Shown here piece after piece: positions 338 through 37,700 of a stretch of DNA of 64,000 bases. The notes beneath the pieces were generated by a model, which saw only the letters and a program-made list of their open reading frames with translations, was not told the DNA's origin and ran no database searches. The translations under genes and the position numbers were made by a program. Position 1 is the stretch's first letter, and the number at the start of each line of letters is the position of its first letter. Origin of the DNA: a virus (taxonomy: Duplodnaviria > Heunggongvirae > Uroviricota > Caudoviricetes); the IMG/VR virus record IMGVR_UViG_3300029914_000004, one strand, 5' to 3'.

Positions 338-434
338 GGGCAGTTGGGGGAGTGGCTTAACCCAAAAGTTTGCTAAACTTTCGGACCAGAATTAAATACT
401 GGTTCCATTCGTTCAAATCGAATACTGCCCGCCA
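338..434 (+). tRNA. tRNA-Ser(GCU), type II with long variable arm
   Basis: Acceptor GGGCAGT/ACTGCCC followed by discriminator G and CCA; D-loop AGTGGCTTAA; anticodon stem AAAGT/ACTTT with loop TTGCTAA (anticodon GCT); long variable arm; T-arm ATTCG-TTCAAAT-CGAAT. Confidence 0.7.
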
Positions 435-463
435 AGTTTAAATTTATAAAAGGAGAAAAAGAC

Positions 464-634
464 ATGCTCGATTATCGACTGTTACATTGTGAATGTGCCT
501 GCCACTTTTTTCCAACAGTTATCAAACATACTGAACCTTGTTGTGATGCAGTAAAATTATTTAAAAAAGACATTGAGATAAAGACTAAGAAAGAAAAGGT
601 AAATACAAAGAAGAATACACAGATGGATGCGTGA
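464..634 (+). CDS. small Cys-rich hypothetical protein (56 aa)
   Basis: ATG preceded by AGGAGAAAAAGAC RBS; Cys-rich (HCECACH...PCC); shorter than the ORF-track cutoff. Confidence 0.35.
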   Translation: MLDYRLLHCECACHFFPTVIKHTEPCCDAVKLFKKDIEIKTKKEKVNTKKNTQMDA

Positions 635-976
635 GTGGTTTATACGATCAGTTTATAAAAACTAACAACCCATTCCATCTGATACAAATTAAATGGAGGT
701 ATTGGGCATTGGCAAGCCCTTCTGTCTCGAAAACAGACGTACCGAAAGGACTTGGGGATTCGACTTCCTCTGCCTCCGCCACTTGGAGAAATAATGGCTT
801 GGACAAATAGAAAATTTTATAAACGACATTCAAAAACGAATTTTTTAATGCTTTATTTGGAAAAGATTAAAAATGAAGAAAGAAGATTGCATGACATTCT
901 TTGTGAACAACTTGCTTATTTGGAAGACGAAGAATGTATAGAAAATTTTAATGATGATGATTGGATAAGTTGCTAA

Positions 977-1489
977 ATGAAAACTATTTTTTTATTTCTG
1001 TTAATATTATCATGCTCTGTTAGCATAGCTCAATCACCAGATTTTTCTGTCCCTAAAAAACATATTATTCCAATGATTTTTAATTATCCGGGATATAATA
1101 TAACCAATGATAATAAACAAAGAAAAATGTTATTCATTGAACGATCAACATTTTTGCTGGATGAAACCACAACTTATATTGCAATTAATAAAACACCAAA
1201 GATAATAACATTAGCAGATGGTTCCAACCATACTTTTCCATTGCAGGAAGGTAATCCCATAATGTCAATATTTGGTAATAGAAATACTATTGGAATTTTG
1301 GGTTCTGGTATTTTTTGGGATAGTGTTTATAATATTAGCACCAGCGAATTATATAAATATTCTGATCATCATTATAGCAATAAAACTAGAAAAGTTATCC
1401 ATGCTGGAATAATTATTATTGGATGCTATTACACTGAAGAACATATTAGGGCTGGAATTACGAATATTAATAATATTAAAAATTATTAA
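977..1489 (+). CDS. hypothetical secreted protein
   Basis: 170 aa; N-terminal signal-peptide-like MKTIFLFLLILSCSVSIAQS. Confidence 0.45.
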   Translation: MKTIFLFLLILSCSVSIAQSPDFSVPKKHIIPMIFNYPGYNITNDNKQRKMLFIERSTFLLDETTTYIAINKTPKIITLADGSNHTFPLQEGNPIMSIFGNRNTIGILGSGIFWDSVYNISTSELYKYSDHHYSNKTRKVIHAGIIIIGCYYTEEHIRAGITNINNIKNY

Positions 1490-1491
1490 AT

Positions 1492-1586
1492 GGAGAGGTG
1501 GCAGAGAGTCTTATTGCGATAGTCTAGAAAACTATTGGGCTTACTAATAATAAGTCCCGTGGGTTAAAATCCCACTCTCTCCTCCA
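1492..1586 (+). tRNA. type II tRNA (long variable arm); anticodon read as AGA (Ser-like), atypical
   Basis: Acceptor GGAGAGG/TCTCTCC with G-U at pair 7, discriminator T and CCA; D-stem GCAG/TTGC; anticodon stem ATAGT/ACTAT with loop CTAGAAA; roughly 22-nt variable arm; T-arm GTGGG-TTAAAAT-CCCAC. Confidence 0.5.
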
Positions 1587-1592
1587 TTTTAT

Positions 1593-1684
1593 GTGCTGAT
1601 ACGGAAGTGGCTTAACCGGGCGGTCTGCAAAATCGCTATAATCATTAATTTGATTCGTGGGTTCGAATCCCACTCAGCACTCCA
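1593..1684 (+). tRNA. type II tRNA-like; anticodon read as GCA (Cys) with a 20-nt variable arm, atypical
   Basis: Acceptor GTGCTGA/TCAGCAC with discriminator T and CCA; D-arm CGG-AAGTGGCTTAA-CCG; anticodon stem GCGGT/ATCGC with loop CTGCAAA; extra arm AATC...GATT; T-arm GTGGG-TTCGAAT-CCCAC. Confidence 0.45.
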
Positions 1685-5391: not shown

Positions 5392-6483
5392 GTGAATAAT
5401 ATGAATGAAACTACTTGCTCTCTCGAAAATTACCTTATTCTTCCTGATAATACAATGGATGAGAGAATCGCCAATGCTAAAAAACAGCTTGGCGATTCTC
5501 TCATTATTTTGGGTCATCACTATCAAAGGGATGAAGTCATAAGATTTGCTGATGCAATTGGAGATAGCTACAAACTATCTAAAATTGCTGCCGAAACAAA
5601 CGCAAAATATATTGTATTTTGCGGCGTTCATTTTATGGCAGAAAGTGCTGATATTTTAAGTAAACCTGAGCAGATAGTAATTTTGCCTGATTTAAATGCT
5701 GGTTGTTCCATGGCTGATATGGCGGATATTTCTCAAGTTGAACATTGCTGGGAAGTTCTTGAACAAATGGGAATAGCAAATCATATAATGCCTATTACAT
5801 ATATGAACAGTTCTGCGGCAATTAAAGCATTCTGCGGAGAGCATGAAGGATTGGTTTGTACTTCTTCCAATGCTGATAAAGCATTTGCATATGCTTTTGC
5901 ACATGATAAAAAAATTCTGTTTATTCCTGATCAACATCTTGGAAGAAATACTGGATCAAAAATGGGAATTTCTTTGAATGAAATGACTATTTGGGACCCT
6001 TGGACAATTCAATATGGCAAGAATTTTCTATTCAAAAAAATTATTTTGTGGAAAGGCCATTGTTCAGTTCATCAGAGATTTCTTCCTTCTCACGTTGAAA
6101 CAATTCGTGAGAAGTATCCCAACATGAAAATCATTGTTCATCCTGAATGTAGAATAGAAGTTTGCGAGAAAGCTGACGATATTGGCTCCACTGAAAAATT
6201 AATTTCTTTGATTGAATCTGCTCCTGATGGATCATCTTTTGCAATTGGAACTGAGATACATCTGGTAAATAGGTTAGCTAAAAAATTTCCAAATAAACAT
6301 ATTATTACGTTGGATGACTCTGGTTGTGGATGCCTTTGCACAACAATGTACAGAATCACTCCTCAGCATTTATGCTGGGTATTGGAAAATCTTGTTGATG
6401 GAAAAGTTGTCAATCATATCAAAGTTAAAGACAGCGTTAAACATTGGGCAAACATTGCTCTAAATAGAATGTTGGAGGTTTAA
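5392..6483 (+). CDS. nadA: quinolinate synthase (NadA)
   Basis: 363 aa; blocks VHFMAESADILS, YMNSSAAIKA, CTSSNA, IPDQHLGRN, GHCSVHQRF, IIVHPEC and IGSTEKLI match NadA throughout. Confidence 0.8.
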   Translation: MNNMNETTCSLENYLILPDNTMDERIANAKKQLGDSLIILGHHYQRDEVIRFADAIGDSYKLSKIAAETNAKYIVFCGVHFMAESADILSKPEQIVILPDLNAGCSMADMADISQVEHCWEVLEQMGIANHIMPITYMNSSAAIKAFCGEHEGLVCTSSNADKAFAYAFAHDKKILFIPDQHLGRNTGSKMGISLNEMTIWDPWTIQYGKNFLFKKIILWKGHCSVHQRFLPSHVETIREKYPNMKIIVHPECRIEVCEKADDIGSTEKLISLIESAPDGSSFAIGTEIHLVNRLAKKFPNKHIITLDDSGCGCLCTTMYRITPQHLCWVLENLVDGKVVNHIKVKDSVKHWANIALNRMLEV

Positions 6484-7155
6484 ATGAGTTATTTATATGA
6501 CAATTGGTTGAATATTCAGTATTCATATAGCTCCTCTTCTTGGTTTATTTTAAATCAAGCATACTCTGAGCGGCATCGCGCATATCACACTTGGGATCAT
6601 ATCGAAACCATGTTGCGAAGATTAGATGAATTACAACATTTAGCTACTGCCCCAAACATAATTAGAAGCGCAATTTTTTGGCATGATTCAGTTTATAACA
6701 CTGGATCAGTTATTGAAACCAAAAGTGAAAAACACTATAATCTCATTCCTGATTCTGTCAATGTAATTCAGAGCGCTGAACTTTTTATGAATCATGAAAA
6801 GGCAAAACTTTCTTATTATAAAAATGCTGTCCTTTCCATGATTTTGGGAACAGTAGATCACATTCATGCAAGCCCAACGTTTGAATATTATCCTGGATTT
6901 TCTAACGACTATAAACTTTTTCTTGATCTTGATCTGAGTGGTTTTGCTGATTCATACGATAAATTTATGGAAAATGGAAATAATATTCGCAAGGAATTTT
7001 CATTCGTATCTGATGAAGATTTTATTGTTGCACGAAAACAAATTTATATGAAGTTTTTACATGCTTTTCCGTTATACAAGCTACCAGAAACGAATGAACT
7101 TTGGGGCAAAAAAGCATATGATAATTTACTTAAAGGATATAAGGATATAAAATGA
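6484..7155 (+). CDS. HD-domain metal-dependent phosphohydrolase (COG4339-like)
   Basis: YHTWDH...FWHDSVYN (H..H/HD motifs); immediately downstream of nadA. Confidence 0.45.
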   Translation: MSYLYDNWLNIQYSYSSSSWFILNQAYSERHRAYHTWDHIETMLRRLDELQHLATAPNIIRSAIFWHDSVYNTGSVIETKSEKHYNLIPDSVNVIQSAELFMNHEKAKLSYYKNAVLSMILGTVDHIHASPTFEYYPGFSNDYKLFLDLDLSGFADSYDKFMENGNNIRKEFSFVSDEDFIVARKQIYMKFLHAFPLYKLPETNELWGKKAYDNLLKGYKDIK

Positions 7156-7316: not shown

Positions 7317-7703
7317 TTGATTAAAAAATTTAAGCATATTAGACAGCCAAAAGATTCATTGTTGTGTGGTCAAGCATGTTTAGCAATGATTACAAAACAG
7401 TCATTGGAAGAAAGTATTAAACATATTGGTCATTCACATGGAACTATAACAAAGGAATTAGTTAAAGTTCTTAAAAAATTCAAATATAAAACTCCCAAAA
7501 AACTACTTAGATTATCATATATTCCAAAATATGCAATTGCCAAAATCCCTCATAAAAATATTAAAGGATATCCAAAAAACGCTCGTGGATGGCACTGGGT
7601 AGTTTATTGGAATGGAAAACGTTATGATCCAGATTGGAATTCTCCTTCATTTTGCTATAATGTAAAAGCATCATCTTTTTTACCAATTTTAAATTTGAAA
7701 TAA
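7317..7703 (+). CDS. peptidase C39-like (papain-fold cysteine peptidase) domain protein
   Basis: Q-x5-CGQACLAMI and downstream GWHWVVYWNG (catalytic Cys and His motifs of the C39 family); apparent TTG start. Confidence 0.55.
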   Translation: MIKKFKHIRQPKDSLLCGQACLAMITKQSLEESIKHIGHSHGTITKELVKVLKKFKYKTPKKLLRLSYIPKYAIAKIPHKNIKGYPKNARGWHWVVYWNGKRYDPDWNSPSFCYNVKASSFLPILNLK

Positions 7704-10538: not shown

Positions 10539-10877
10539 TTGAAAATTAGAGATGGTTTTGTATCAAATTCAAGTTCAACAAGTTTTTCGATTTATGGTAT
10601 TAACATCGACGGATCAAAATTGCGCAGTCTATTATGCGGTGGACCAGAAGAAGATTTTCCAGATGACGATGGAATTTATGAACTTCTTGAAAATTTAGAA
10701 GGATTAAATACCTATCATGATTATGAAAGCGGCGGCGCATATATTGGTCTTCCTTGGGATTCAATTAAAGATAATGAAACTGGAAAAGAATTCAAAAATA
10801 GAGTTCATGATCTTATAAGAGAACAACTGCACGAAGATTTGACTTGTAGCACAATCAGCGAAACAATTAGCTCATAA
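10539..10877 (+). CDS. KIRxGFVSNSSSxSF-family small protein (paralog 1)
   Basis: TTG start; N-terminus MKIRDGFVSNSSSTSFSIYG; shares YIGLPWD..DNET..EFK.RV..LI with paralog 2. Confidence 0.5.
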   Translation: MKIRDGFVSNSSSTSFSIYGINIDGSKLRSLLCGGPEEDFPDDDGIYELLENLEGLNTYHDYESGGAYIGLPWDSIKDNETGKEFKNRVHDLIREQLHEDLTCSTISETISS

Positions 10878-10887
10878 AGGAAGAATA

Positions 10888-11997
10888 ATGAATCGCATTA
10901 AAAAAATTTCGTTTCCCGATTACAATCGCATTTTTGACCGCAAAACTGGTTTAACAATTGAATATGGAAAAACCATTGATGAAGACCCACCAATGTCTCC
11001 TGATGGCCCATCTATTGCTGATATTGAAATTTCTACTATTTGTAATGGATTTTCTCCTGATGGTGATATTACAAAAAGCAAACCTTGTGCTTGGTGTTAT
11101 AAAACAAACACAGCAAAAGGCACAAATATGTCATTGAATGAATTCAAACATATTTTGAAATTACTTGGGAATGTAGACCAAGTAGCATTGGGGTTAGGTG
11201 ATATTGAAAGTAACCCAGATATATGGAATATGTTATCCTATAGTCGTTCATTGGGAATAATTCCGAATTTGACAGTTAATGGTATGGGAATTACTCCAGA
11301 AATTGCAGATAAGTTAGCAAAGTTTTGTGGGGCTGTGGCGTGTTCTCATTATTCTGACAAAATTTGTTTTAATACTGTAAAAGCACTAACTGATGCTGGG
11401 TTAACTCAGGTGAATATTCACGCCCTTCTATCCAAAGAGACACTATCAAAATGTTTTGATTTGATTGATAAAGTATTCGAGTCAAAAAATGGTGGGGAAG
11501 ATAAAAGTCTCTCTGGATTAAAAGCAATTGTTTTTCTATTGCTCAAACCGAAAGGAGCTAGAAATAAATTTCATCCAGTGGAAAAATTAGAAGATTATAA
11601 AAAATTAATGGATTATGCCAGAGAGAAAAATGTTGCAATTGGAATGGATTCATGCTCTGCTCCAATGGCGTTGAAAACATTGCCATCTGAGTGCATTCCC
11701 TCCATTATTTGTTGTGAGTCAACATACACTTCAATTTATATTGACGTGAATTCTGAAGTATTTCCGTGTAGTTTTGCTGCTGGAACCCCAGGTTGGGAAA
11801 CTGGTATCGATATGAAAAATATCAATAATTTTTTAAATGATGTATGGTTTCATACCAAAATGATAAAATGGAGAGATGGATTAATAAAATCATCCAGTGA
11901 TTGCTCAAATTGTTCAACTCAAAAACATTGCAGAAGTTGCCAGATTTATGATGTGACTATTTGCAAAACAAAATTAGTTAATTTGGAGGTATTATAA
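10888..11997 (+). CDS. radical-SAM-like enzyme (CX14CX2C variant) with a C-terminal Cys-rich SPASM/twitch-like region
   Basis: IEISTIC-x14-CAWC; possible degenerate GGEP-like motif GLGDIESNP; C-terminal CSFAAG...CSNCSTQKHCRSCQIYDVTIC cluster. Confidence 0.45.
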   Translation: MNRIKKISFPDYNRIFDRKTGLTIEYGKTIDEDPPMSPDGPSIADIEISTICNGFSPDGDITKSKPCAWCYKTNTAKGTNMSLNEFKHILKLLGNVDQVALGLGDIESNPDIWNMLSYSRSLGIIPNLTVNGMGITPEIADKLAKFCGAVACSHYSDKICFNTVKALTDAGLTQVNIHALLSKETLSKCFDLIDKVFESKNGGEDKSLSGLKAIVFLLLKPKGARNKFHPVEKLEDYKKLMDYAREKNVAIGMDSCSAPMALKTLPSECIPSIICCESTYTSIYIDVNSEVFPCSFAAGTPGWETGIDMKNINNFLNDVWFHTKMIKWRDGLIKSSSDCSNCSTQKHCRSCQIYDVTICKTKLVNLEVL

Positions 11998-12300
11998 ATG
12001 AAAATTCGGAGCAGCTTCGTAAGCAATTCAAGTTCATCGAGTTTTTTAATCTATGGAACTTTTATTGAAGATTATAAATTTGATGAGTTAAATGTAAAAG
12101 AGAGTGATCTGAAAAAATCCGGTCTTGAAGTAATTTCGACTCCTGGGGACGATGATAAATATATTGGGCTATCGTGGGATGCCACAGAAGATAACGAAAC
12201 GAGGTTGGAATTTAAAGATAGAGTTAAAAATCTTATTATATCTTCTTTAGGAAAAGATATGCCATTGGCTACTTACAGCGAAGCGTGGTACGATGGTTAA
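11998..12300 (+). CDS. KIRxGFVSNSSSxSF-family small protein (paralog 2)
   Basis: MKIRSSFVSNSSSSSFLIYG...YIGLSWDATEDNETRLEFKDRV. Confidence 0.5.
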   Translation: MKIRSSFVSNSSSSSFLIYGTFIEDYKFDELNVKESDLKKSGLEVISTPGDDDKYIGLSWDATEDNETRLEFKDRVKNLIISSLGKDMPLATYSEAWYDG

Positions 12301-12311
12301 AGGAGATAATT

Positions 12312-12599
12312 ATGGCAAAAATACGCAAAGGCTTTGTAAGCAACAGTAGTTCAAGTTCATTCATTATAAAAACACAAAATTTAACTTGTGAGCAAGCAAA
12401 TATGATTTTAAATCATATGGATTATGCAGAAGAACTGGGACTCAAAGATGAATATGTTAATGACTATGATGAATGGCACATCTCTTTTATAGGAGAGTCT
12501 ATTACAGGATATACGTCTATGGATAATTTTAATATGCACGAATTTTTAATTAAAATTGGAGTATCTCCAAACAATATTGAAATGGAGTATAATGGCTAA
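12312..12599 (+). CDS. KIRxGFVSNSSSxSF-family small protein (paralog 3, N-terminal motif only)
   Basis: RBS AGGAGATAATTATG; MAKIRKGFVSNSSSSSFII; in the frame of ORF 12285..12599. Confidence 0.45.
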   Translation: MAKIRKGFVSNSSSSSFIIKTQNLTCEQANMILNHMDYAEELGLKDEYVNDYDEWHISFIGESITGYTSMDNFNMHEFLIKIGVSPNNIEMEYNG

Positions 12600-13656
12600 A
12601 ATTATTAATGATTTAAAACTTAACTTTGATGATGTATTAATTGTGCCGAAATCAAGTTCTTTAGATTCTAGAAAAGACGTAAATTTAAATGTAAATTTTA
12701 AATTTCCTCATTCCAAAGCAACTTGGAGTGGAATTCCCATAATTGCTTCAAATATGACGACTGTTGCAAGTTTTGAAATGGCAAATGCTTTGGCAAAGCA
12801 TAATATTATGACAGCAATTCACAAGTATTATTCTATTGAAGAGCTTAAAAACTTTTTTAATACTAAAATTGCTTGTGACTACGCTTGGTATACATTGGGA
12901 ACCAGCAAAGATGAGTGGGAAAAACTTAAAAAAGTAAATACAAATAAGCTAAGTATAGACAAAATTTGTATCGATGTTGCAAATGGATATCGAGATTCAT
13001 TTGTTGATGCTGTTAAAAAACTTCGTGATGAATATCCATTTGTAACTATTATGGCAGGAAATGTTGTTACTCCTGAGCAGACTGCTGTACTAATTAATGC
13101 AGGAGCAGACATTATTAAAGTAGGGATTGGCGGGGGATCAGGCTGTCTTTCAAGAGTCAAAACAGGAATTGGTTACGGGCAAATTAGCGCAATTTTAGAA
13201 TGTTCAGAAGCTGCGTATGAACTGGATGCATTTATTTGTAGTGATGGTGGATGCAGAAATCCCGGAGATGTTTGCAAAGCATTTGGGGCAATGTATGGTA
13301 AAAATTTTGTAATGCTTGGTTCAATGCTTGCTGGTCATGATGAAACTCAAGCAAAAAAATTTATCAAAGATGGCAAGGAATTTGTAGAATTTTACGGTAT
13401 GAGCAGCGAAAAAGCAATGAGAGAACACAATAATGGAATGGCAGAATATCGAACAAGCGAAGGACGGCATATTTTACTTCCTGCTCGTGGCCCAGTAGAA
13501 AATACCATTTTGGACTGTCTCGGTGGAATTCGCAGTTGTTGCACGTATACAAACACAAAAAATTTGTCTCATCTATCTGAAAACACTACTTTTATACGAG
13601 TGAATGAGACTCACAATAAAATCTATGAAAAACTTGACTTGAACAATCAAATATGA
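12592..13656 (+). CDS. guaC: GMP reductase (GuaC; IMPDH/GMPR family)
   Basis: Near-collinear with E. coli GuaC: VPKSS..SR.DV, IPIIASNMTTV, CIDVANGY, GNVVT, IKVGIGGGSGC..RVKTG.GY.Q, SDGGC..PGDV.KAFG, MLG.MLAGH.E, FYGMSSE.AM, RGPVENT. Confidence 0.85.
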   Translation: MAKIINDLKLNFDDVLIVPKSSSLDSRKDVNLNVNFKFPHSKATWSGIPIIASNMTTVASFEMANALAKHNIMTAIHKYYSIEELKNFFNTKIACDYAWYTLGTSKDEWEKLKKVNTNKLSIDKICIDVANGYRDSFVDAVKKLRDEYPFVTIMAGNVVTPEQTAVLINAGADIIKVGIGGGSGCLSRVKTGIGYGQISAILECSEAAYELDAFICSDGGCRNPGDVCKAFGAMYGKNFVMLGSMLAGHDETQAKKFIKDGKEFVEFYGMSSEKAMREHNNGMAEYRTSEGRHILLPARGPVENTILDCLGGIRSCCTYTNTKNLSHLSENTTFIRVNETHNKIYEKLDLNNQI

Positions 13657-13682: not shown

Positions 13683-13961
13683 ATGATTGAAAAAGCAGTC
13701 AGTCTGCACAATGATATTGGCAACCACGATAAAGTTTATTACATTCAAATCGTGTCGGCTGAAAATAATAAGTTTACTGTATGTTTTCAATATGGCAGAC
13801 GCGGAAAGCATTTGACATATGGCACAAAAACTGACATCCCAGTATCTCTTTGGGAAGCTGAACGACTTTTTAGTGACAAATTAAATCATGAACTGAAAAA
13901 GGGATATCACGTTATTCCAAATCCTGTCGATCTGCTGACAATTATTGGATTTTCATACTAA
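13683..13961 (+). CDS. WGR-domain protein
   Basis: 92 aa; DKVYYIQIV...FQYGRRGKHLTYGT resembles the WGR core (W-G-R-x-G). Confidence 0.4.
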   Translation: MIEKAVSLHNDIGNHDKVYYIQIVSAENNKFTVCFQYGRRGKHLTYGTKTDIPVSLWEAERLFSDKLNHELKKGYHVIPNPVDLLTIIGFSY

Positions 13962-14043: not shown

Positions 14044-14778
14044 ATGAATATTACATGGCATACTGAGCAAAAATCACGACCATATCAAGAGGATAGATTT
14101 TTTGTCCAGAAGCTGACTTCTGGAGAAACCATTCTTGGAGTATTTGATGGTCATGGTGATTCTTGGACTTCTGAGTATGCTGCAAAACATACCCCATATA
14201 TTTTTCGGGCATTATTGAAGAATAATCCTTATTCTTATTATTTAACAATGGAAAAAGTAATTAATAGACTTGATAAAAAAACACAAAATCATTATTGCGG
14301 AAGCACTGCATCATTGGTTTTGATCGACAAAGATCAAAAATTTGCATACGTTGCCATTCTTGGCGATAGCCCTGTGATTATTAAAGATGCAGAAGAAAAT
14401 ATTTGGATTGCTCCAGAGCACAATGTTCGATCAAATAAAGCAGAAGCTGATGCTGCTATAAAAGATGGCAAAGCATTTATTTCTGATGGATATTTATTTG
14501 ATCGAAGCAAAGGTCGTGATAGCACCGGCTTACAAATGTCCAGAGCATTAGGGGACAGAAGTTTAGATAATATCTTAAATCGAACTCCAGAAGTTTTTGA
14601 AATCGAATTAAATAAAAATAGCTGGATTTTATGTGCATCTGATGGCTTAACTGATCCTGGCCATTCTTCATCTAATTTTGATAATATCATTGCAAAAATT
14701 TCAACCGCAACTGCTAGAAGCTTAACTAAAGAAGCCGGAATTTATGACAATGCAACAGCTATTTTAGTAAAACTGTAA
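14044..14778 (+). CDS. PP2C-family (PPM) Ser/Thr protein phosphatase
   Basis: GVFDGHGD (motif 1), ILGDSPVII, CASDGLTD (metal-binding Asp motifs). Confidence 0.7.
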   Translation: MNITWHTEQKSRPYQEDRFFVQKLTSGETILGVFDGHGDSWTSEYAAKHTPYIFRALLKNNPYSYYLTMEKVINRLDKKTQNHYCGSTASLVLIDKDQKFAYVAILGDSPVIIKDAEENIWIAPEHNVRSNKAEADAAIKDGKAFISDGYLFDRSKGRDSTGLQMSRALGDRSLDNILNRTPEVFEIELNKNSWILCASDGLTDPGHSSSNFDNIIAKISTATARSLTKEAGIYDNATAILVKL

Positions 14779-15016: not shown

Positions 15017-16294
15017 ATGAAAAATACTAATCTAGATATTAAATGTATTTTCTGTGGCAAAACTAGGGCCGAAAGTTCCAAAATTCTCGTGAGTGGAGAA
15101 TTTTCAATTTGTGATAAATGTGTGTTACTTTTCAATGGTCTTTTAGAAAATAGTAAACCTTCAGAAAAAAAAGCTAAAGAGAAAGAAATTAAGCAAGAAT
15201 CTGAATTAATATCTGAGGAAATTATTCCTCAATTAAATTCCATTGAAATTAAAAAATTTCTTGATAAGAATGTTATTGGGCAAGAAGAAGCAAAAATTGC
15301 ATTGAGCGTTAGTATAGTAAATCACTATAAAAGAATGCTATATGAAACAACTAATTATACACAATTAGACAAAAGTAATTTAATTATCACTGGACCGAGC
15401 GGAAGTGGAAAATCTCTTCTCATTAAAACAATTTCTAAATTTTTAAATGTTCCCTTCGTATCAATAGATGCTACTACATTGACCGAAGCTGGTTATATTG
15501 GAGAAAATGTAGACACTATCATTTCTCGGCTTCTTGCTAATGCAGATGGTGATATTGAAGCTGCTCAACAAGGAATTGTTTTTATTGATGAAATAGATAA
15601 AATTGCCACTGGAAAAACTAGAAGTAGCACAAGCGACAAACATGTATCTGGAGTTCAAGCTGCATTATTAAAAATGGTAGAAGGATCTATTGTAAGAATT
15701 CCATCGCCTTCAATTAAAAAATCATTTATTCCCCAATTAGTCGAAGTTGATACAACAAATATATTGTTCATTTGCGGCGGGGCATTTGAGGGATTAAATG
15801 AAATAGTTATTAATAGATTGAAAAAGAAATCAGGAATGGGGTTTACTGATGCTCCTATAAATAATAAAACTTTAGAAACAGAATATTCTACAGAAGATTT
15901 TATTGAATATGGAATAATTCCTGAATTTATTGGAAGATTTCCATTACATACATATACTACTGCATTGAGTACTGAAGAATTAATTAAAGTTTTAACAGAT
16001 TTAGACAATAATATGCTTTTTCAATATAAATTTTATTTTGAAATTGATGATATTGATATAGAATTTACTGATGAATTTATTGCCAAATTAGCCGCAAAAG
16101 CAAAAATGAATAAAACTGGAGTTCGTGGCCTTAAAGGATTGTGTGATTCAATAATGTCAGATCATTTATTTTTACTTCCTGAATATAAAAAACGTGGAAT
16201 TTTTAAATTAATATTTGACGAAAGTTGTATAGATAAAAAATCTATACCCAAATTTGAATTCACTACATTCAAAGAAAAAGTAAAAACTTCTTGA
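15017..16294 (+). CDS. clpX: ClpX-like AAA+ unfoldase
   Basis: N-terminal C4 zinc-binding domain CIFCGK...ICDKCV; Walker A ITGPSGSGKSLL; Walker B VFIDEIDKI; ClpX-like region GYIGE.V; about 425 aa. Confidence 0.8.
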   Translation: MKNTNLDIKCIFCGKTRAESSKILVSGEFSICDKCVLLFNGLLENSKPSEKKAKEKEIKQESELISEEIIPQLNSIEIKKFLDKNVIGQEEAKIALSVSIVNHYKRMLYETTNYTQLDKSNLIITGPSGSGKSLLIKTISKFLNVPFVSIDATTLTEAGYIGENVDTIISRLLANADGDIEAAQQGIVFIDEIDKIATGKTRSSTSDKHVSGVQAALLKMVEGSIVRIPSPSIKKSFIPQLVEVDTTNILFICGGAFEGLNEIVINRLKKKSGMGFTDAPINNKTLETEYSTEDFIEYGIIPEFIGRFPLHTYTTALSTEELIKVLTDLDNNMLFQYKFYFEIDDIDIEFTDEFIAKLAAKAKMNKTGVRGLKGLCDSIMSDHLFLLPEYKKRGIFKLIFDESCIDKKSIPKFEFTTFKEKVKTS

Positions 16295-20049: not shown

Positions 20050-21015
20050 ATGGCACACACTCGAAAATTACTTTTGATCCAAGGAGAATCAGGATCTGGA
20101 AAATCAACCTTTGCTAAAAAATATGTCGAGGATCATCCCAATTATATTAGAATAAATCGTGATGATTTACGCATCGAATTGGCTGATGAACCAAATGCCC
20201 CAAAAGGCGGAAAATTTGAACGCTTTGTTTCTTTGGTTGAAAAAAGCAGAGTTGATAAAGCTTTAAAGGAAAATAAATCAGTAATATTAGATAATACTCA
20301 TTTAAATTCAAACACTGTCGATGGATGGCGTAATTTCGCTCGTCATAAAGCAGAATTTGATATTTATCGAATGCAAACTCCAATGGAAGAGTGTATTTTG
20401 CGTGATTCAAAAAGAATTGGCAAATCACATGTGGGAACGGCTGTAATTCATCGTCAATTTCTTATGTCTGGTAGATTGCCCATTGATCTTTCAAAGAAAA
20501 TAGTGTTGTCTGATGTGGATGGAACTTTGATGGATTGCCATGGAATCCGCAGCCCATATGATGAAAGCAAAGTGTTGTTAGATAAACCTTTTCAAAATAT
20601 CATCAATGAAGTTAATAAATATCATGATGCTGGAAATACTGTTATTATTGTTTCTGGTCGGCATAGCACTTGCGGAGATGATACCATCACTTCACTTACT
20701 AAACATGGTGTAAAATTTGATTTTATTTTTATGCGCCACATGTGGGATAATAATCACGATTATATCGTGAAACAACAAATTTTGGACCAATTACTTAATG
20801 TTGTCCCAAAAGAGCAAATTATTAAAATATGGGATGACCGTCCACAAGTTGTAAAACAAGTGTGGCTCAAAAATAATTTACCAATTCAACCAGTTTTTAA
20901 AAATCAATTAATTCCTATCAATGAATGGACTACTGTTCATGATAAGAATTGCAAATTCATTGCAACCAATAGATTTGGTCGATGCCCTGATTGTGAAGCA
21001 TTGGAGGATTTTTAA
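20050..21015 (+). CDS. polynucleotide 5'-kinase/3'-phosphatase (T4 Pnk/PseT-like)
   Basis: N-terminal P-loop LLIQGESGSGKST and C-terminal HAD phosphatase motif VLSDVDGTL, in the same domain order as T4 Pnk. Confidence 0.65.
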   Translation: MAHTRKLLLIQGESGSGKSTFAKKYVEDHPNYIRINRDDLRIELADEPNAPKGGKFERFVSLVEKSRVDKALKENKSVILDNTHLNSNTVDGWRNFARHKAEFDIYRMQTPMEECILRDSKRIGKSHVGTAVIHRQFLMSGRLPIDLSKKIVLSDVDGTLMDCHGIRSPYDESKVLLDKPFQNIINEVNKYHDAGNTVIIVSGRHSTCGDDTITSLTKHGVKFDFIFMRHMWDNNHDYIVKQQILDQLLNVVPKEQIIKIWDDRPQVVKQVWLKNNLPIQPVFKNQLIPINEWTTVHDKNCKFIATNRFGRCPDCEALEDF

Positions 21016-21321
21016 ATGGAAGGAAACGCAGTGGTTCCTTGCCCAAATTGCAAATTTATGCTTAATGTAGAAGAAGATAAACTTGCAAAATCATATGGGA
21101 ACATTCTAATGGATGATTTTTTGGCTAAAGAAGCAAAAATCAATGTAGACCGTCGTGGGGTACTGGATAGTTCTTTGTCATTAACCTCAGAAGTGAATTT
21201 TAATTATGATAAATTTAAAATAATCATTACTGCTCATTGCGGCAGATGTAAATATGACTACCGCTTCAATCACGAAGAAAATATGAAAGATTTGATCTTA
21301 ATACAAAAATTGGCGAAATAA
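21016..21321 (+). CDS. zinc-ribbon protein
   Basis: CPNC...CGRC Cys pairs. Confidence 0.4.
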   Translation: MEGNAVVPCPNCKFMLNVEEDKLAKSYGNILMDDFLAKEAKINVDRRGVLDSSLSLTSEVNFNYDKFKIIITAHCGRCKYDYRFNHEENMKDLILIQKLAK

Positions 21322-21322
21322 A

Positions 21323-21580
21323 ATGGCAAAATTTGTTGTAGATTTATGGCTAGATGGATATGATTCTGAAGAAGAAATGATCGTGGCTTGTAAAGAATTC
21401 ATATATGAATCACTTAATATGACTGCTAGTTCTGTAAAAGTTGCAGATTTTTATCAATATACAAAAACAGCATGTCCTGCTTGTCTTGCCAATGATCATT
21501 CCCAGCATGATACTAGTGTCTATAAATTAGGTTGTCAAGATCAAACTACAGAAAAACCATGCGAATGCATGGTAGAATAA
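21323..21580 (+). CDS. hypothetical Cys-containing protein
   Basis: 85-aa ORF; ATGA overlap. Confidence 0.4.
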   Translation: MAKFVVDLWLDGYDSEEEMIVACKEFIYESLNMTASSVKVADFYQYTKTACPACLANDHSQHDTSVYKLGCQDQTTEKPCECMVE

Positions 21581-21592
21581 GAGGATATTATT

Positions 21593-22693
21593 ATGGCTTT
21601 GTGGCGAACTTTTGCTTGTAAAATTCAATTGCTTCCACATCCAAACGCAGATAGAATGGAAATTGCTCGTTGCAATTTCAATCAACTTGTGGTTGCTAAA
21701 GGAAATTATCAAGACGGTGATGTTATTGTCTTCGCACCAGAACGAGCAATTTTGCCTGATTCTTTGAAAGGCGAATATGTAAATTCTGAAACTGGAATCA
21801 GTTATCTTACTGGATCAGAGAAAAATAGAGTCAAAGCTATCAAACTGAGAGGAGAACCATCAGACGGAATTTCCCTTCCTATTGAATGGGTATTGGAGCA
21901 AGTTCCTGAATGGAATTCTGTCAAAGATATTCCTTTGGATATTGACATTTCAGAAAAACTTGGTATTTCAAAGTATGAACCTCCAATTCCTTATAATATG
22001 AGCGGAATTGTAAAATCTGTCGATACTTTAAATTTTGCACCGAAAGTCGCTCATCACGATGTTGAACAATTTCGTTTGTTCGCTGATGAATTTGATAAAA
22101 ATGAAGCTGTAATTTGCAGCGAAAAGTTGCACGGAACGCAAATCAATGTCTTTTTCTCTAAAACTGGAGAAATTGGAGTGTCTAGCAAAGGATTCAATTC
22201 CAGAGATTTGATCATTGAACAGGATGCAAAGAATCTCTACTGGCAAGCACTGGAAAATTCTGGTCTAATTAATTTTGTTAAATGCGAAATTCTTGAGTCA
22301 AATGCTCCAGAACTATACAAATCAGATGTTCAATTGGTTGGAGAAGTAATTCCTTGCCAAAAGAATTTTACATATGGTCAAACCAAACCAATTCTGAAGC
22401 TATTTCGTTTTATTGTAAATGGCAAGGAATATTCAGTTCTTGATCTTAACAGAATTTATGGAAAACAGTTCTTGAAAGATCATTGGGTGCCAATTCTTTA
22501 TCACGGAAAATTTGATCCTGAAATATTTGCAAAACTATCTTCTGGAAATGAAACTGTCTCTGGAAAAGGTTTGCACATCAAAGAAGGCATTGTTATTGCT
22601 CCAGAAATTCCGCGAGTAGCGCGAAGAGGATTTCTCCTTCTTTTAAAATGGCTAAATAAGAATTATAAACCAACAGATGAGGATTTTTCTTAA
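21593..22693 (+). CDS. RNA ligase with an N-terminal OB-like domain plus a nucleotidyltransferase domain (Rnl5/DraRnl-NgrRnl-like)
   Basis: Motif I KxHG (SEKLHGTQ) around residue 180, preceded by a roughly 110-aa domain, as in the Deinococcus and Naegleria ligases. Confidence 0.5.
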   Translation: MALWRTFACKIQLLPHPNADRMEIARCNFNQLVVAKGNYQDGDVIVFAPERAILPDSLKGEYVNSETGISYLTGSEKNRVKAIKLRGEPSDGISLPIEWVLEQVPEWNSVKDIPLDIDISEKLGISKYEPPIPYNMSGIVKSVDTLNFAPKVAHHDVEQFRLFADEFDKNEAVICSEKLHGTQINVFFSKTGEIGVSSKGFNSRDLIIEQDAKNLYWQALENSGLINFVKCEILESNAPELYKSDVQLVGEVIPCQKNFTYGQTKPILKLFRFIVNGKEYSVLDLNRIYGKQFLKDHWVPILYHGKFDPEIFAKLSSGNETVSGKGLHIKEGIVIAPEIPRVARRGFLLLLKWLNKNYKPTDEDFS

Positions 22694-23055
22694 TGTTTAA
22701 TATTTGTGAAGACGATTTGACCAATTCAAATTTATTAACTTTAAATTATACTAGAAGTGGAAAAATTGCATGTGCAATTCGTCAACTGTTTAACTGGTAT
22801 TGCCATATTCAAAATAAGGAATATAATCTTCCTTATAATGATGGGTATATCAACTATATACATGCTGATAAAAATTGGATTAAAGTTGATGGACTTATTA
22901 GTGGAAATGAATATCGATGGAATATTCCGATCCCATATAGAAATGAAATGAATATCCCTACTAAATGGTTATTTCAGGAAAACTGGAAAGAATTAATTGA
23001 ACAACAAATTAAACGAGATAAAAATGAATATCTCATAAAAAAATTAAGTGAATAA
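22693..23055 (+). CDS. EKLSE-family small protein
   Basis: C-terminus ENWKELIEQQIKRDKNEYLIKKLSE. Confidence 0.45.
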   Translation: MFNICEDDLTNSNLLTLNYTRSGKIACAIRQLFNWYCHIQNKEYNLPYNDGYINYIHADKNWIKVDGLISGNEYRWNIPIPYRNEMNIPTKWLFQENWKELIEQQIKRDKNEYLIKKLSE

Positions 23056-23279
23056 TGGAGAGTTTTATGATTTTATTTTTAGTAATTTTATATCTAATTT
23101 CTACAATTGAAGCCACGTATTTTTTCAGTAAATCTTGGTTATTCTATAACGATTTATATTTGGGAAATTTGATTTTTTGTTTTATACTGGGACTTTTACC
23201 TTGTGCTTTCGTTCCAGCGTTTATATTATATTTAATAACATATTCCAAGTTGCCAGCCCTTTTAATAAAGAAGAGATAA
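23055..23279 (+). CDS. small membrane protein
   Basis: 74 aa with two hydrophobic helices. Confidence 0.4.
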   Translation: MESFMILFLVILYLISTIEATYFFSKSWLFYNDLYLGNLIFCFILGLLPCAFVPAFILYLITYSKLPALLIKKR

Positions 23280-23602
23280 TGATTCCAGACGAATTAACGA
23301 GAGCATTACAATTGGTGGGGAAAGATCATCAATTAATTAATAACGAAGTTTCTATAATTTATAAAAAATTTCAAGAACTCAAATTGAAAATTTTGGGATA
23401 TTCATGGAACAATAAATGTGTGTCTATTTTTGATGTAATTGAATTAGATTATAATAATAAATTATTTTTCATTAATAAAAAACGTGGATGTTATTTATCA
23501 TTTCCAATTCGTTGGCTCAGCGATCCAAATTGGGAAAAAGAAGCAATAGAAGGGATCAAAATTGAGAGAGATTATGCTCTAATTGACAAACTACAATCAT
23601 AA
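23279..23602 (+). CDS. EKLSE-family small protein (variant C-terminus IDKLQS)
   Basis: ATG after AAGAGATA; NWEKEAIEGIKIERDYALIDKLQS; in the frame of ORF 23177..23602. Confidence 0.4.
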   Translation: MIPDELTRALQLVGKDHQLINNEVSIIYKKFQELKLKILGYSWNNKCVSIFDVIELDYNNKLFFINKKRGCYLSFPIRWLSDPNWEKEAIEGIKIERDYALIDKLQS

Positions 23603-23665
23603 GAAAACAAATGATTTATTTTGACTTTTAGGTTTATATTTGCTGTTCTAGATTAGAGGATCAAA

Positions 23666-24763
23666 ATGATTGTTTTAAATAAACTGCTGAATGTCGAGAC
23701 TTTGGAGCAATTAATTGCTGATGGATATATTTCTCGAAAATTTCACTCCAAATTTCCTTTGGCAATTTTGAACTATTCTCATAAAGCCAACTTTGATCCA
23801 AACTTGATATGGGGCAATGAGTTAAATTTCTGCCGAGGATTGATTTACAATACTGAAACTTTAGAAATTGTTAGTCGTCCATTTTCCAAATTCTGGAACA
23901 TTAATGATACTCGCCATCCTGAAACTATGGAAGAGAATCTTCCCAACGATATTCCTCTAATCACATCAAAGATGGATGGGAGCATGGGAGTATTTTATCA
24001 CTGGGATGGTGTAAATTATATTGCAACTCGTGGAAGTTTTGAGTCTGACCAATCAAATTGGGCCAATGAATGGCTTCATAAAAATTATCCTAATTTGATT
24101 CTTCCAAAAAATTATACTCTGCTATCAGAAATCCTTTTCAAATCTAATAGGATAGTCGTAGAATATGATTTTGAAGGACTTGTAATTTTGGGAGCAGTTC
24201 ATAAAGAAACTGGCCAGGAATTATCACGTCAAAATCTTGTAGATTATTGCGATATTACTAATCTAAACATCGTTCAAGACCACACCAAGTCTTTATCTGA
24301 GTGTGTTTCTGAAGACTTACCCAATTTTGAGGGATATGTCTTAACTTATTCAAATGGGTTAAAAGTTAAAATCAAAGAATTGACTTATTGCACCCTCCAT
24401 AAGATTATTACAGGTCTCAATCCTAAAGCAATTTGGGAATTGAAGCGTGATGGAAAAAATGAAACTATTGATAGTTGGTTGAATGATAAAATAATGCCGA
24501 TTGAATTCAAGAATTGGCTAAACAAGTGGGATGATCAATTATCCAATGATTTCTACAAAATATTGATGACGGCTGAATCTATTTTTAATAAGCAACCAAA
24601 AACTAATTCTCGTAAGGAAATTGCAACATATTTCTTACAAGGAGAAAACAAAGAGTATTCATCTATTTTATTCGGATTATTGGATGGCAAAGATGTTTCT
24701 CAAACAATTTGGAGAATGATTGAGCCAAAATTCAATGACGTATTTAGAGAAGATGGAGAGTAA
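23666..24763 (+). CDS. RNA ligase 1-like (T4 RnlA family)
   Basis: Motif I K-x-D-G (ITSKMDGSMGVF) around residue 100; 365 aa, similar in size to T4 Rnl1. Confidence 0.55.
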   Translation: MIVLNKLLNVETLEQLIADGYISRKFHSKFPLAILNYSHKANFDPNLIWGNELNFCRGLIYNTETLEIVSRPFSKFWNINDTRHPETMEENLPNDIPLITSKMDGSMGVFYHWDGVNYIATRGSFESDQSNWANEWLHKNYPNLILPKNYTLLSEILFKSNRIVVEYDFEGLVILGAVHKETGQELSRQNLVDYCDITNLNIVQDHTKSLSECVSEDLPNFEGYVLTYSNGLKVKIKELTYCTLHKIITGLNPKAIWELKRDGKNETIDSWLNDKIMPIEFKNWLNKWDDQLSNDFYKILMTAESIFNKQPKTNSRKEIATYFLQGENKEYSSILFGLLDGKDVSQTIWRMIEPKFNDVFREDGE

Positions 24764-32963: not shown

Positions 32964-32994
32964 CATATTCAAAACAAAGCACTTATTTTCTTAT

Positions 32995-33023
32995 TGACAA
33001 ATCACCTAAAGTTTAGTATACTT
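32995..33023 (+). promoter_or_regulatory. family promoter with a conventional leader (TTGACA-N17-TATACT)
   Basis: Followed by a 22-nt leader with a GGAG RBS. Confidence 0.55.
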
Positions 33024-33041
33024 ATTTTAGTGGAGAAAACT

Positions 33042-37310: not shown

Positions 37311-37329
37311 ATACAAGTGTTAAATAACG

Positions 37330-37700
37330 CTCGTGAAAGGACAGTATAAAATCAACGGACAACACACCGGTTCAACTCCGGTCAGGTCCACCAAATTTAT
37401 GATTCAATGTTTTATTTGGGCCTGTCATGGTATCGATTGACGTGTGGTTGGACTACTGACGAGCCGACTGGTGTGGCCATCGTAAATGGACACATAAACA
37501 ATAATTGCTACCTCTGGTATCAATGGCAGTGCAAAGATTTTCACGTATTCTGTGAATCTCCGCAACACTGAGCTAGTAAACGCCTAATAAGCTTTACTCC
37601 GAGGAGTTGTTCCGTCCTTGTAAAAGAAACGGAACTATAAAATTTCCTTTAACAACTCAGTAGATCACTGCATATAGGACAATTTTATTTTGCATCTAGA
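37330..37700 (+). ncRNA. ssrA: candidate circularly permuted (two-piece) tmRNA-like RNA
   Basis: T-arm plus 3' acceptor plus CCA (ACCGGTTCAACTCCGGT-CAGGTCC-A-CCA; GGTTCAACTCC is identical to the E. coli tmRNA T-arm) with no 5' acceptor upstream; perfectly complementary 5' acceptor GGGCCTG 14 nt downstream, followed by ATCGATTGACG (compare tmRNA GGATTCGACG); 420-nt ORF-free, GC-richer, hairpin-rich region; possible tag frame ending AAC GCC TAA TAA. Confidence 0.4.

What the first reader, a model, noticed from the sequence alone, without database searches (positions are those of the whole stretch)
10539..12599. RiPP-like locus: variant radical-SAM/SPASM-like enzyme flanked by three paralogous small proteins
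The 369-aa protein has a CX14CX2C cluster (IEISTIC-x14-CAWC), a spacing reported for some radical SAM enzymes in place of the canonical CX3CX2C. It also has a C-terminal Cys-rich SPASM/twitch-like tail (CSFAAG...CSNCSTQKHCRSC...C). It sits among three small ORFs of 95-112 aa that share a near-identical N-terminal 20-mer MKIR.GFVSNSSS.SF.IYG but diverge afterwards; two of them also share YIGL.WD...DNET..EFK.RV. A conserved leader-like N-terminus, variable remainder and adjacent radical-SAM maturase is the architecture of ribosomal peptide modification clusters. The nearby C39-like peptidase at 7317 is the peptidase class that removes such leaders. I know of no described phage system with this composition.
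Basis: partly seen in the sequence, partly recalled or inferred. Interest (0 to 1): 0.75.

Follow-up and report, generated by a model that had tools for sequence, protein, structure and literature searches.

The report
Radical-SAM enzyme with N-terminally tagged proteins
This phage encodes a radical-SAM/SPASM enzyme flanked by three proteins that start with the same near-invariant 16-residue serine-rich tag, and the same undescribed enzyme-plus-tag pair recurs in hundreds of phages and in bacterial immune-type (STAND NTPase) gene cassettes.

Summary

The link between enzyme and tag holds well beyond this window:
- 71 of 80 enzyme-seeded viral loci carry 1-10 tagged ORFs. All 274 are on the enzyme's strand, and the median nearest distance is 289 bp.
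- 75 of 116 tag-seeded stretches from cellular genomes carry the enzyme.
- In plasmids the two co-occur 7 of 7.
- About 172-175 cultured T4-like phages, including RB16, carry both genes roughly 20 kb apart.

The tag always starts at the start codon. It is conserved at the protein level while synonymous codons vary freely. AF2 predicts it as a flexible N-terminus ahead of a folded domain. The remainders fall into at least 115 unrelated families of 60-300 aa. No protease, transporter or RRE co-occurs, and the C39-like gene is unrelated.

My best reading is a dedicated radical modification of a universal N-terminal tag on folded proteins, closer to anSME than to a classical RiPP. The chemistry is unknown. 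In bacteria the pair sits in a four-gene cassette with an Avs2-like STAND NTPase, which suggests a role in phage-host conflict. I found no description of it in the searchable literature.

The parts
10539..10877 (+). Tagged protein A (112 aa), subfamily 'YIGLxWD...ETGxEFKxRV'
   Evidence: ORF. TTG start with an AGGAG site upstream. Falls in C-terminal cluster 1, which has 41 members from 35 loci.
10539..10586 (+). N-terminal tag of A: (M)KIRDGFVSNSSSTSF
10888..11997 (+). Radical-SAM/SPASM enzyme (369 aa), member of phrog_7293
11041..11097 (+). Radical-SAM cluster motif C52-x14-C67-x2-C70
   Evidence: All three Cys invariant in 56 of 56 homologues. Loop length n = 3-14 across the family.
11653..11964 (+). 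Auxiliary-cluster (SPASM-type) cysteines C256, C276, C294, C339, C342, C348, C351, C359
   Evidence: Conservation. Weak SPASM hits: Pfam, TIGR04085 and BtrN.
11998..12300 (+). Tagged protein B (100 aa), same subfamily as A. Its ATG directly follows the enzyme's stop codon.
   Evidence: AF2 model pLDDT 78.5: residues 5-12 are below 50 and the folded domain starts at residue 13.
11998..12045 (+). N-terminal tag of B: MKIRSSFVSNSSSSSF
12312..12599 (+). Tagged protein C (95 aa), a different subfamily ('LTxEQ...NH...GYTSMDNF')
   Evidence: Same subfamily as cluster 0 (42 members from 41 loci). AAGGAG site upstream of the ATG at 12312.
12312..12362 (+). N-terminal tag of C: MAKIRKGFVSNSSSSSF, with one extra Ala
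   Evidence: By the established Met-excision rule (Met is removed before Ala and kept before Lys), the mature N-terminus would be in the same register as MKIR. That step is an inference.

Best explanation
This is a two-part protein-modification module. The 369-aa radical-SAM/SPASM enzyme recognises the flexible N-terminal tag M-K-I-R-x-G-F-V-S-N-S-S-S-S-S-F on a set of otherwise unrelated folded proteins. There are three such proteins here and up to ten in other phages. The enzyme uses a 5'-deoxyadenosyl radical to modify a residue inside the invariant F-V-S-N-S-S-S stretch. It would bind the tag directly in its barrel, as anSME, SuiB and CteB bind their substrates, without a separate leader-binding (RRE) domain. 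The tag is therefore the recognition and modification site, not a leader to be cut off. The variable remainder is the working part of each protein.

The module probably serves phage-host conflict. In phages it lies among accessory genes, here next to tRNA-repair genes. In bacteria the same enzyme-plus-tag pair is the downstream half of a four-gene cassette headed by an Avs2-like STAND NTPase.

Shown here: the fold and cluster ligands of the enzyme, the anatomy and protein-level conservation of the tag, the predicted disorder of the tag in one model, and co-occurrence in four independent collections.

Inferred: that the tag is the enzyme's substrate, that it binds directly in the barrel, and the conflict role.

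Unknown: the chemistry. Candidates are Ser C-beta oxidation of the anSME type, an F7-x-S9 cyclophane of the triceptide type, epimerisation, or another crosslink.

For: Linkage. 71 of 80 enzyme-seeded IMG/VR loci hold at least one tagged ORF within 8 kb. All 274 tagged ORFs are on the enzyme's strand, and the median nearest distance is 289 bp. Tagged proteins are the only gene family that recurs near the enzyme. In the reverse direction, 43 of 118 tag-seeded viral fragments, and at least 55 of 108 contigs, show the enzyme. So do 75 of 116 tag-seeded 8-kb stretches of cellular genomes. In 72,556 plasmids the tagged protein occurs in 7 records, and these are the same 7 that hold the close enzyme homologue. 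In 50,697 cultured phages the enzyme occurs in 172 records and two tagged families in 175 and 174, with the same genus distribution, although the genes lie about 20 kb apart in RB16.

Tag. In the unbiased, enzyme-seeded set, 246 of 248 tags begin at a start codon exactly six codons before F7. K2 is present in 240, R4 in 248 and G6 in 233 of 248, and none of these positions was imposed by the search pattern. Ser codons switch freely between AGY and TCN, and Arg between AGA and CGN. The remainders split into 115 clusters with no detectable similarity between them and have no Pfam family. AF2 places residues 5-12 at pLDDT below 50, ahead of a folded domain.

Co-variation. A bacterial enzyme subclade with CX7CX6C or CX6CX6C pairs with the tag variant GFVTNSSSTNF.

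Conflict context. Of 44 bacterial loci that hold both the TAG137 family and the enzyme, 39 also carry the STAND gene, and 38 show the compact arrangement: STAND NTPase, a ~125-aa protein, the tagged protein directly upstream of the enzyme, all on one strand.
Against: There is no direct evidence that the enzyme touches the tag. No complex could be modelled and no mass data exist. The enzyme's Pfam and NCBIfam scores fall below the curated thresholds, so family placement rests on structure prediction and Cys conservation. The disorder of the tag rests on one AF2 model of one subfamily, and low pLDDT can also reflect a low-complexity stretch. Nine of 80 enzyme loci have no tag within 8 kb, and in the T4-like clade the genes are not adjacent, so adjacency is not obligatory. 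Many tagged families also have conserved extreme C-termini. This hints that N- and C-termini may form a shared site, so the tag could be part of each protein's own functional centre. Much of the co-occurrence comes from related genomes and is not phylogenetically independent. The conflict role rests on gene neighbourhood only.
Confidence: 0.55

Rival explanations
1. Classical RiPP. The conserved N-terminus is a leader that guides the enzyme to modify residues further downstream. A protease then releases a small bioactive peptide.
For: The nearest structural relatives include RiPP maturases: SuiB, SkfB, CteB, TigE and ChlB. Several precursor-like paralogues sit next to one maturase.
Against: The tagged proteins are 60-305 aa (median 129), and the one modelled has a folded domain. 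No protease, transporter or RRE recurs near the enzyme. The C39-like gene is absent from all related loci. The 'cores' belong to at least 115 unrelated families, so a single enzyme would have no common target site outside the tag.
Confidence: 0.1
2. The tag is a docking, targeting or degradation signal that the enzyme does not modify. The enzyme acts on a small molecule or nucleotide, as viperin does, and the tagged proteins are partners, regulators or cargo.
Against: The pVip hits cover only the generic radical-SAM core. The enzyme has a SPASM-type C-terminal Cys domain, typical of peptide- and protein-modifying members, and SPASM enzymes outrank viperin. For the possibly related Avap1, Bechon et al. 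found no viperin-type nucleotides and no NTP pocket (PMC11564622). Capsid targeting cannot explain the bacterial and plasmid cassettes.
Confidence: 0.17
3. The tag is an intrinsic structural or catalytic element of one very divergent protein superfamily, for example a first beta-strand plus a Ser-rich ligand-binding loop that pairs with the conserved C-terminus. The radical-SAM enzyme makes the ligand or cofactor that these proteins bind.
For: Residues 13-24, including the end of the tag, form the first beta-strand of the model. Many subfamilies have conserved extreme C-termini such as ...EAWYDG...GGNDN...G.GRNG and ...SHH.
Against: Near-invariance of 16 residues, while the rest diverges beyond detection across 115 clusters and lengths of 60-305 aa, is not how fold cores evolve. 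Residues 1-12 are not part of the predicted fold. Foldseek finds no significant match for the modelled domain.
Confidence: 0.12
4. The grouping is incidental. The small ORFs are local paralogues from gene duplication and have no functional tie to the enzyme.
For: A and B are paralogues, 45% identical.
Against: Co-occurrence is seen in four independent collections and in both search directions. C belongs to a different subfamily yet carries the same tag.
Confidence: 0.02

Closest known systems
anSME / AtsB (anaerobic sulfatase-maturating enzymes)
   Different: The substrate motif C/S-x-P/A-x-R is absent from the tag. There is no NCBIfam hit to anSME models. The substrates here are many unrelated small proteins, not sulfatases.
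SuiB / StrB, SkfB, CteB, TigE, ChlB (SPASM or twitch RiPP maturases)
   Different: Those enzymes carry an N-terminal RRE or leader-binding domain and act on short peptides that are later cleaved and exported. Here there is only a 40-residue, three-strand N-terminal element, no protease or exporter, and folded substrates.
FxsA/FxsB: FxSxx-COOH peptides with a radical-SAM/SPASM enzyme in STAND/VMAP conflict systems (Kaur et al. 2020, PMC7159879); triceptide three-residue cyclophanes (from my own knowledge)
   Same: A short conserved F-x-S-containing motif at a protein terminus, a dedicated radical-SAM/SPASM enzyme, and association with STAND NTPase conflict systems. The tag contains F7-V8-S9.
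   Different: The Fxs motif is C-terminal and processed by a peptidase, whereas this tag is N-terminal. The enzyme gives no NCBIfam hit to FxsB. This is a resemblance only and homology was not shown.
KpAvs2 operon accessory proteins Avap1 (radical SAM) and Avap2 (Bechon et al. 2024, PMC11564622)
   Same: An Avs2-family STAND NTPase encoded with a radical-SAM protein of unknown role and a small accessory protein. The bacterial cassette found here has an NTPase that matches PADLOC Avs2 models (E down to 1.9e-22), a small protein, a tagged protein and the radical-SAM/SPASM enzyme.
   Different: KpAvs2 is a three-gene operon with an Mrr-nuclease Avs2 of more than 1350 aa. Here there are four genes, and the STAND protein is 690-960 aa with SMEK, trypsin-like or other N-termini. 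Neither the tagged protein nor the ~125-aa protein hits DUF6375, the family matched by Avap2, with HMMER.
QueE (CX14CX2C radical-SAM enzyme)
   Same: The same 14-residue spacing between the first two cluster cysteines.

Membership tests
Radical SAM superfamily | Three-Cys motif (canonically CX3CX2C) that ligates the [4Fe-4S] cluster | tested here: met
   C52, C67 and C70 are invariant in 56 of 56 homologues. Spacing is CXnCX2C with n = 3 (9 sequences), 6, 7, 8, 12 (33 sequences) or 14 (2 sequences).
Radical SAM superfamily | Partial TIM-barrel fold | tested here: met
Radical SAM superfamily | Score above the curated Pfam threshold for PF04055 | tested here: not met
   22.5 bits against a cut-off of 29.5 for the window protein. 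Bacterial homologues pass, at 55.6 and 56.5 bits.
SPASM / twitch subfamily | C-terminal Cys-rich domain (CX9-15GX4C ... CX2CX5CX3C ... C) that binds auxiliary Fe-S clusters | tested here: inconclusive
   The pattern C276-x17-C294 ... C339x2C342x5C348x2C351 ... C359 is present. C276, C294, C348 and C351 are invariant and the others occur in 44-47 of 56. Pfam SPASM scores 18 bits against 21.5, and TIGR04085 scores 23.1 against 27. The T4-like members lack the first CxxC and so look twitch-like. The best structural matches are SPASM enzymes.
RiPP biosynthetic cluster | Short precursor peptide with a leader and a core | tested here: not met
   The tagged proteins are 60-305 aa with a median of 129, and the one modelled has a folded domain.
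RiPP biosynthetic cluster | RiPP recognition element (PqqD-like) in or next to the maturase | tested here: not met
   No Pfam or NCBIfam hit to such a domain. The N-terminal 40 residues form only three short strands. No conserved neighbour besides the tagged proteins.
RiPP biosynthetic cluster | Leader peptidase and/or exporter | tested here: not met
   No recurrent neighbour family besides the tagged proteins. The C39-like gene has no homologue in about 320 related loci.
anSME | Substrate motif C/S-x-P/A-x-R and membership in the anSME models | tested here: not met
   The tag lacks the motif. No anSME model appears among the NCBIfam hits.
FxsB / triceptide maturases | FxsB-type enzyme acting on a C-terminal FxSxx-COOH or repeated aromatic-x-x motif | tested here: not met
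   No FxsB hit. The motif here is N-terminal and single. Only the F-x-S triplet is shared.
Peptidase C39 (protein at 7317-7703) | Pfam PF03412 above threshold, and association with the cluster | tested here: not met
   15.5 bits against a cut-off of 22. A CGxxC-like motif and a later His are visible by eye, but the gene is not found in any related locus.
Avs2-associated Avap1/Avap2 module | Homology of the enzyme to Avap1 and of a small partner to Avap2 (DUF6375) | not testable with these tools
   The Avap sequences are not held and no supplement text is available. HMMER gives no DUF6375 hit for 22 bacterial partner proteins.

The most novel reading that the evidence does not exclude
A widespread, undescribed post-translational system of phage-host conflict. 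One dedicated radical-SAM/SPASM enzyme installs a radical modification on a universal 16-residue N-terminal tag, and that tag is carried by thousands of otherwise unrelated effector-like proteins. A profile built on one subfamily already finds 8,949 protein clusters at 50% identity. Phages carry arrays of up to ten such proteins, and bacteria have wired the same enzyme-plus-tag pair into Avs2-like STAND immune sensors. The modification may be a chemistry not yet seen on proteins.
Probability: 0.4. Interest if true: 0.9.

Novelty: new variant of a known kind. Interest (0 to 1): 0.8.

Why it matters
If the enzyme does modify the tag, this would be a protein-tagging and modification system of a kind I did not find described for phages. 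One enzyme would serve a whole, rapidly diversifying repertoire of proteins through a fixed N-terminal address. Three things would follow. First, thousands of 'hypothetical' phage proteins would gain a shared handle for study. Second, radical-SAM protein chemistry would be linked to antiviral STAND (NLR-like) immunity, where a radical-SAM accessory gene of unknown role has already been reported. Third, the question can be tested in tractable phages that grow on laboratory enterobacteria, since RB16, RB43 and the Klebsiella/Enterobacter T4-like phages carry both parts. A 16-residue tag recognised by a single enzyme could also be useful as a protein-engineering tool.

Tried and rejected
- DNA similarity of the locus to cultured phages found nothing.
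- A single-sequence scan of viral contigs with the enzyme found nothing. An alignment was needed.
- Literature searches for the motif string and for radical SAM with phage, SPASM, STAND or RiPP found no description. Ophion, a radical-SAM defence system, has different partners. The marine RiPP-phage paper is unrelated.
- Pfam, PHROGs and NCBIfam on 74 diverse tagged proteins gave only sporadic single hits, plus phrog_7397 through the tag itself.
- Foldseek of the small-protein model found no significant match.
- A DNA-level repeat or recombination cassette is rejected because synonymous codons vary freely.
- The C39 link is rejected.
- The QueE relationship is rejected.
- Promoter and terminator scans were no better than shuffled sequence.
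- Radical-SAM genes on E. coli and Klebsiella plasmids that weakly matched the bacterial enzyme are unrelated genes, with no tagged or STAND gene among their annotated neighbours.
- The attempt to equate the bacterial partners with DUF6375/Avap2 by HMMER gave no hit and remains open.
- A complex of the enzyme with a tag could not be modelled, because only single chains from the window or from the database may be submitted.
Full report
**What is in the window.** Four tightly packed + strand genes occupy 10539-12599.
- Protein A: 10539-10877, 112 aa.
- The enzyme: 10888-11997, 369 aa.
- Protein B: 11998-12300, 100 aa. Its ATG directly follows the enzyme's stop codon.
- Protein C: best read from the ATG at 12312 (95 aa), which has an AAGGAG site upstream.

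A, B and C begin (M)KIRDGFVSNSSSTSF, MKIRSSFVSNSSSSSF and MAKIRKGFVSNSSSSSF. A strict search finds the motif at no other ORF in the 64 kb. The three DNA copies differ at synonymous sites.

**The enzyme.**
- Sequence profiles are weak. Pfam Radical_SAM gives 22.5 bits and SPASM 18 bits, both below threshold. NCBIfam gives only sub-threshold hits to MftC, NirJ2 and the SPASM domain. The protein belongs to the unannotated phrog_7293 (E 2.7e-63).
- A database search found 177 homologues. In an alignment of 56 of them, C52, C67, C70, C160, C189, C256, C276, C294, C348 and C351 are invariant. C339, C342 and C359 are present in 44-47.
- The spacing between the first two cluster cysteines is 3, 6, 7, 8, 12 or 14 residues. 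The window's CX14CX2C is thus one length variant of a loop inserted into the canonical motif.
- AlphaFold2 with this alignment gives pLDDT 93.3 and pTM 0.90.
- All the top matches are SPASM or twitch radical-SAM enzymes that modify peptides or proteins.
- Ahead of the barrel there are only three short strands (residues 4-26, highly conserved) and no RRE-like domain.

**The tag.** I extracted 581 tagged ORFs from about 200 related loci, of which 427 are unique and complete. Lengths run from 20 to 305 aa, with a median of 129.
- In the enzyme-seeded set, which is not biased by the DNA pattern used later, 246 of 248 tags begin at ATG, GTG or TTG exactly six codons before F7.
- In that set K2 is present in 240, R4 in 248 and G6 in 233 of 248. 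The search pattern imposed none of these positions.
- Serine codons alternate between AGY and TCN, and arginine between AGA and CGN. Selection therefore acts on the peptide and not on the DNA.
- After residue 18 the proteins fall into 115 clusters with no detectable similarity between clusters.
- A and B belong to one cluster (YIGLxWD...ETGxEFK...EAWYDG). C belongs to another (LTxEQ...NH...SMDNF).
- Seventy-four diverse members have no Pfam family. PHROGs recognises only the tag itself (phrog_7397).
- A profile built on the A/B subfamily finds 8,949 proteins at E ≤ 1e-3 among 1.84 billion cluster representatives.
- AlphaFold2 of B with 79 sequences gives pLDDT 78.5. Residues 5-12 are below 50, and a beta-alpha-alpha-beta-beta-alpha-beta domain starts at residue 13. 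This domain has no significant match in the PDB.
- C starts M-A-K-I-R. By the Met-excision rule its mature end would be in the same register as M-K-I-R. This is an inference.

**Is the pairing real?** Five independent tests say yes.
1. Of 80 IMG/VR loci found with the enzyme alignment, 71 carry 1-10 tagged ORFs within 8 kb. All 274 are on the enzyme's strand, 207 lie downstream, and the median nearest distance is 289 bp. No other gene family recurs there, so there is no protease, exporter or RRE.
2. A degenerate DNA pattern for MKIRxGFVSNSSS found at least 120 viral stretches. Of the 118 new fragments, 43 contain the enzyme, as do at least 55 of 108 contigs. Both figures are lower bounds, because only short fragments of each contig were available.
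3. The same pattern in one genome per prokaryotic species found 116 stretches, and 75 hold an enzyme homologue within 8 kb.
4. Among 72,556 plasmids, the bacterial tagged protein occurs in 7 records (Agrobacterium, Rhizobium, Rhodobacter). These are the same 7 that hold the close enzyme homologue.
5. Among 50,697 cultured phages, the enzyme is in 172 records and two tagged families are in 175 and 174, with matching genus counts. In RB16 the enzyme (RB16p156) and the tagged proteins (RB16p106, RB16p111) lie about 20 kb apart on the same strand.

The enzyme and the tag also co-vary. A bacterial enzyme subclade with CX7CX6C or CX6CX6C goes with the tag variant GFVTNSSSTNF.

**Bacterial counterpart.** Forty-four bacterial loci hold both the ~137-aa tagged family and the enzyme. 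Thirty-nine of them also carry a STAND gene, and 38 show the same compact cassette. Its gene order is:
- a STAND/NACHT NTPase of about 690-960 aa;
- a ~125-aa protein;
- a ~137-aa tagged protein (MKIRxGFV[ST]NSSST[SN]F ... FYxNGxNCxW);
- the radical-SAM/SPASM enzyme, here with a canonical CX3CX2C.

The NTPase matches PADLOC Avs2 models (E down to 1.9e-22). Its N-terminal domains vary: SMEK, trypsin-like, or others. In some loci an MBL-fold gene similar to Avs1a/LmuA sits next to it. Examples are Veillonella parvula, Acetatifactor muris, Lachnobacterium bovis, Verrucomicrobia MAGs and the Agrobacterium plasmid pAt2, where it lies next to an integrase.

Bechon et al. 2024 (PMC11564622) described an Avs2 operon with a radical-SAM accessory protein (Avap1), needed against some phages, and a small Avs2-binding protein (Avap2). 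The function of both is unknown. This may be the same module. I could not test that, because the sequences are not held and HMMER gives no DUF6375 hit for the partners found here.

Kaur et al. 2020 (PMC7159879) described a thematically similar pairing: a terminal FxSxx peptide with a radical-SAM/SPASM enzyme in STAND-containing conflict systems.

**Interpretation.** The best-supported reading is a dedicated enzyme-substrate pair. The radical-SAM/SPASM enzyme binds the free, flexible N-terminal tag and modifies a residue in the invariant FVSNSSS core. The variable folded remainder is the functional cargo. In logic this is closer to anSME acting on sulfatases than to a leader/core RiPP.
- Shown: the fold, the ligands, the tag anatomy, protein-level selection and the co-occurrence.
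- Inferred: the substrate relationship and the conflict role.
- Unknown: the chemistry.

The window's surroundings fit an accessory or counter-defence region. They include NadA, an HD protein, GMP reductase, a WGR protein, PP2C, a ClpX-like protein, a PNKP with two RNA ligases and a CCA-adding enzyme, and four tRNA genes.

**Rivals.**
- A classical RiPP is disfavoured by the size and fold of the substrates and by the missing protease, exporter and RRE.
- A non-substrate address tag with a small-molecule-making enzyme is disfavoured by the SPASM architecture, but it is not excluded.
- The tag as an intrinsic active-site element is disfavoured by its invariance against total divergence elsewhere, and by its predicted disorder.
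- Chance paralogy is excluded.

**Verdict.** The C39 link and the idea that the CX14 spacing is special are wrong. The locus is a member of a large, apparently undescribed enzyme-plus-tag system shared by phages and bacterial STAND cassettes. It is a new variant of radical-SAM/SPASM peptide or protein modification. It is of high interest and can be tested directly in RB16-type phages.

Noticed in passing
window 338-1684: Three tRNA-Ser genes (anticodons GCT, CGA, AGA) and one tRNA-Cys lie in a row. Several Ser tRNAs in a genome that encodes Ser-rich tags may be coincidence.
   Followed up: no
window 37297-37678: ARAGORN reports a 'tmRNA*' with a tag peptide ATSGINGSAKIFTYSVNLRNTELVNA. It was not checked against Rfam and may be a false positive.
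   Followed up: no
window 20050-24763 and 32994-34367: An RNA-repair gene set: polynucleotide kinase-phosphatase, two RNA ligases (an RNA_ligase/PHA02142 type and a T4 Rnl1 type) and a CCA-adding/poly(A) polymerase-HD enzyme. From my own knowledge this is typical of tRNA repair against host anticodon nucleases.
   Followed up: partly
window 56174-57469 (-): A dUTPase of 431 aa with a LAGLIDADG-type insert, which may be an intein or homing-endonuclease insertion.
   Followed up: no
window 5392-6483, 12556-13656, 13683-13961, 14044-14778, 15017-16294: Auxiliary genes around the locus: quinolinate synthase NadA, a GMP reductase/IMPDH-family enzyme, a WGR-domain protein, a PP2C phosphatase and a ClpX-like ATPase with the ClpX zinc finger. 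A related contig has PP2C, an AAA ATPase, HSP20 and ClpS downstream of the same module.
   Followed up: partly
window 7317-7703: A 128-aa protein with a C39-like Cys motif (LLCGQACLAM) and a later His, scoring below the Pfam threshold. It has no homologue in any related locus.
   Followed up: yes
L178, L245, L278, L308 and about 25 further loci: A mostly bacterial subclade of the enzyme replaces CXnCX2C with CX7CX6C or CX6CX6C (for example GHCLHGLSGKCRMSGVEC). This unusual radical-SAM cluster spacing goes with the tag variant GFVTNSSSTNF.
   Followed up: partly
L222 5265-7418 (-), L238, L250, L282: Firmicute proteins of 717-811 aa carry the tag followed by a hydrophobic, membrane-like segment (MKIRKGFVTNSSSTNFGTMLVSSLGAVGISS...). 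The tag is therefore not restricted to small proteins.
   Followed up: no
related loci, e.g. L026, L079, L084, L085; L206 (RB16) 6489-7001 (-): Many tagged subfamilies also have conserved extreme C-termini (...EAWYDG...IQGGNDN...FGAGRNG...YSDNDG..MEHG..SHH...GTRxC). This suggests the two termini may work together.
   Followed up: no
L055 9679 and four other viral loci: A second, canonical radical-SAM gene (CNKNCEYC) lies just downstream of the enzyme in five IMG/VR loci.
   Followed up: no
L145 (IMG/VR contig of 547,943 bp); MAG contigs L236, L253, L260, L276: Contigs deposited as Asgard, Nanoarchaeota, Omnitrophota or Patescibacteria MAG sequences carry arrays of up to nine tagged ORFs with the enzyme. 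They look like large phage genomes binned into MAGs.
   Followed up: no
window about 48000-50000: GC skew and AT skew change sign here, which matches the switch from + strand to - strand genes.
   Followed up: no
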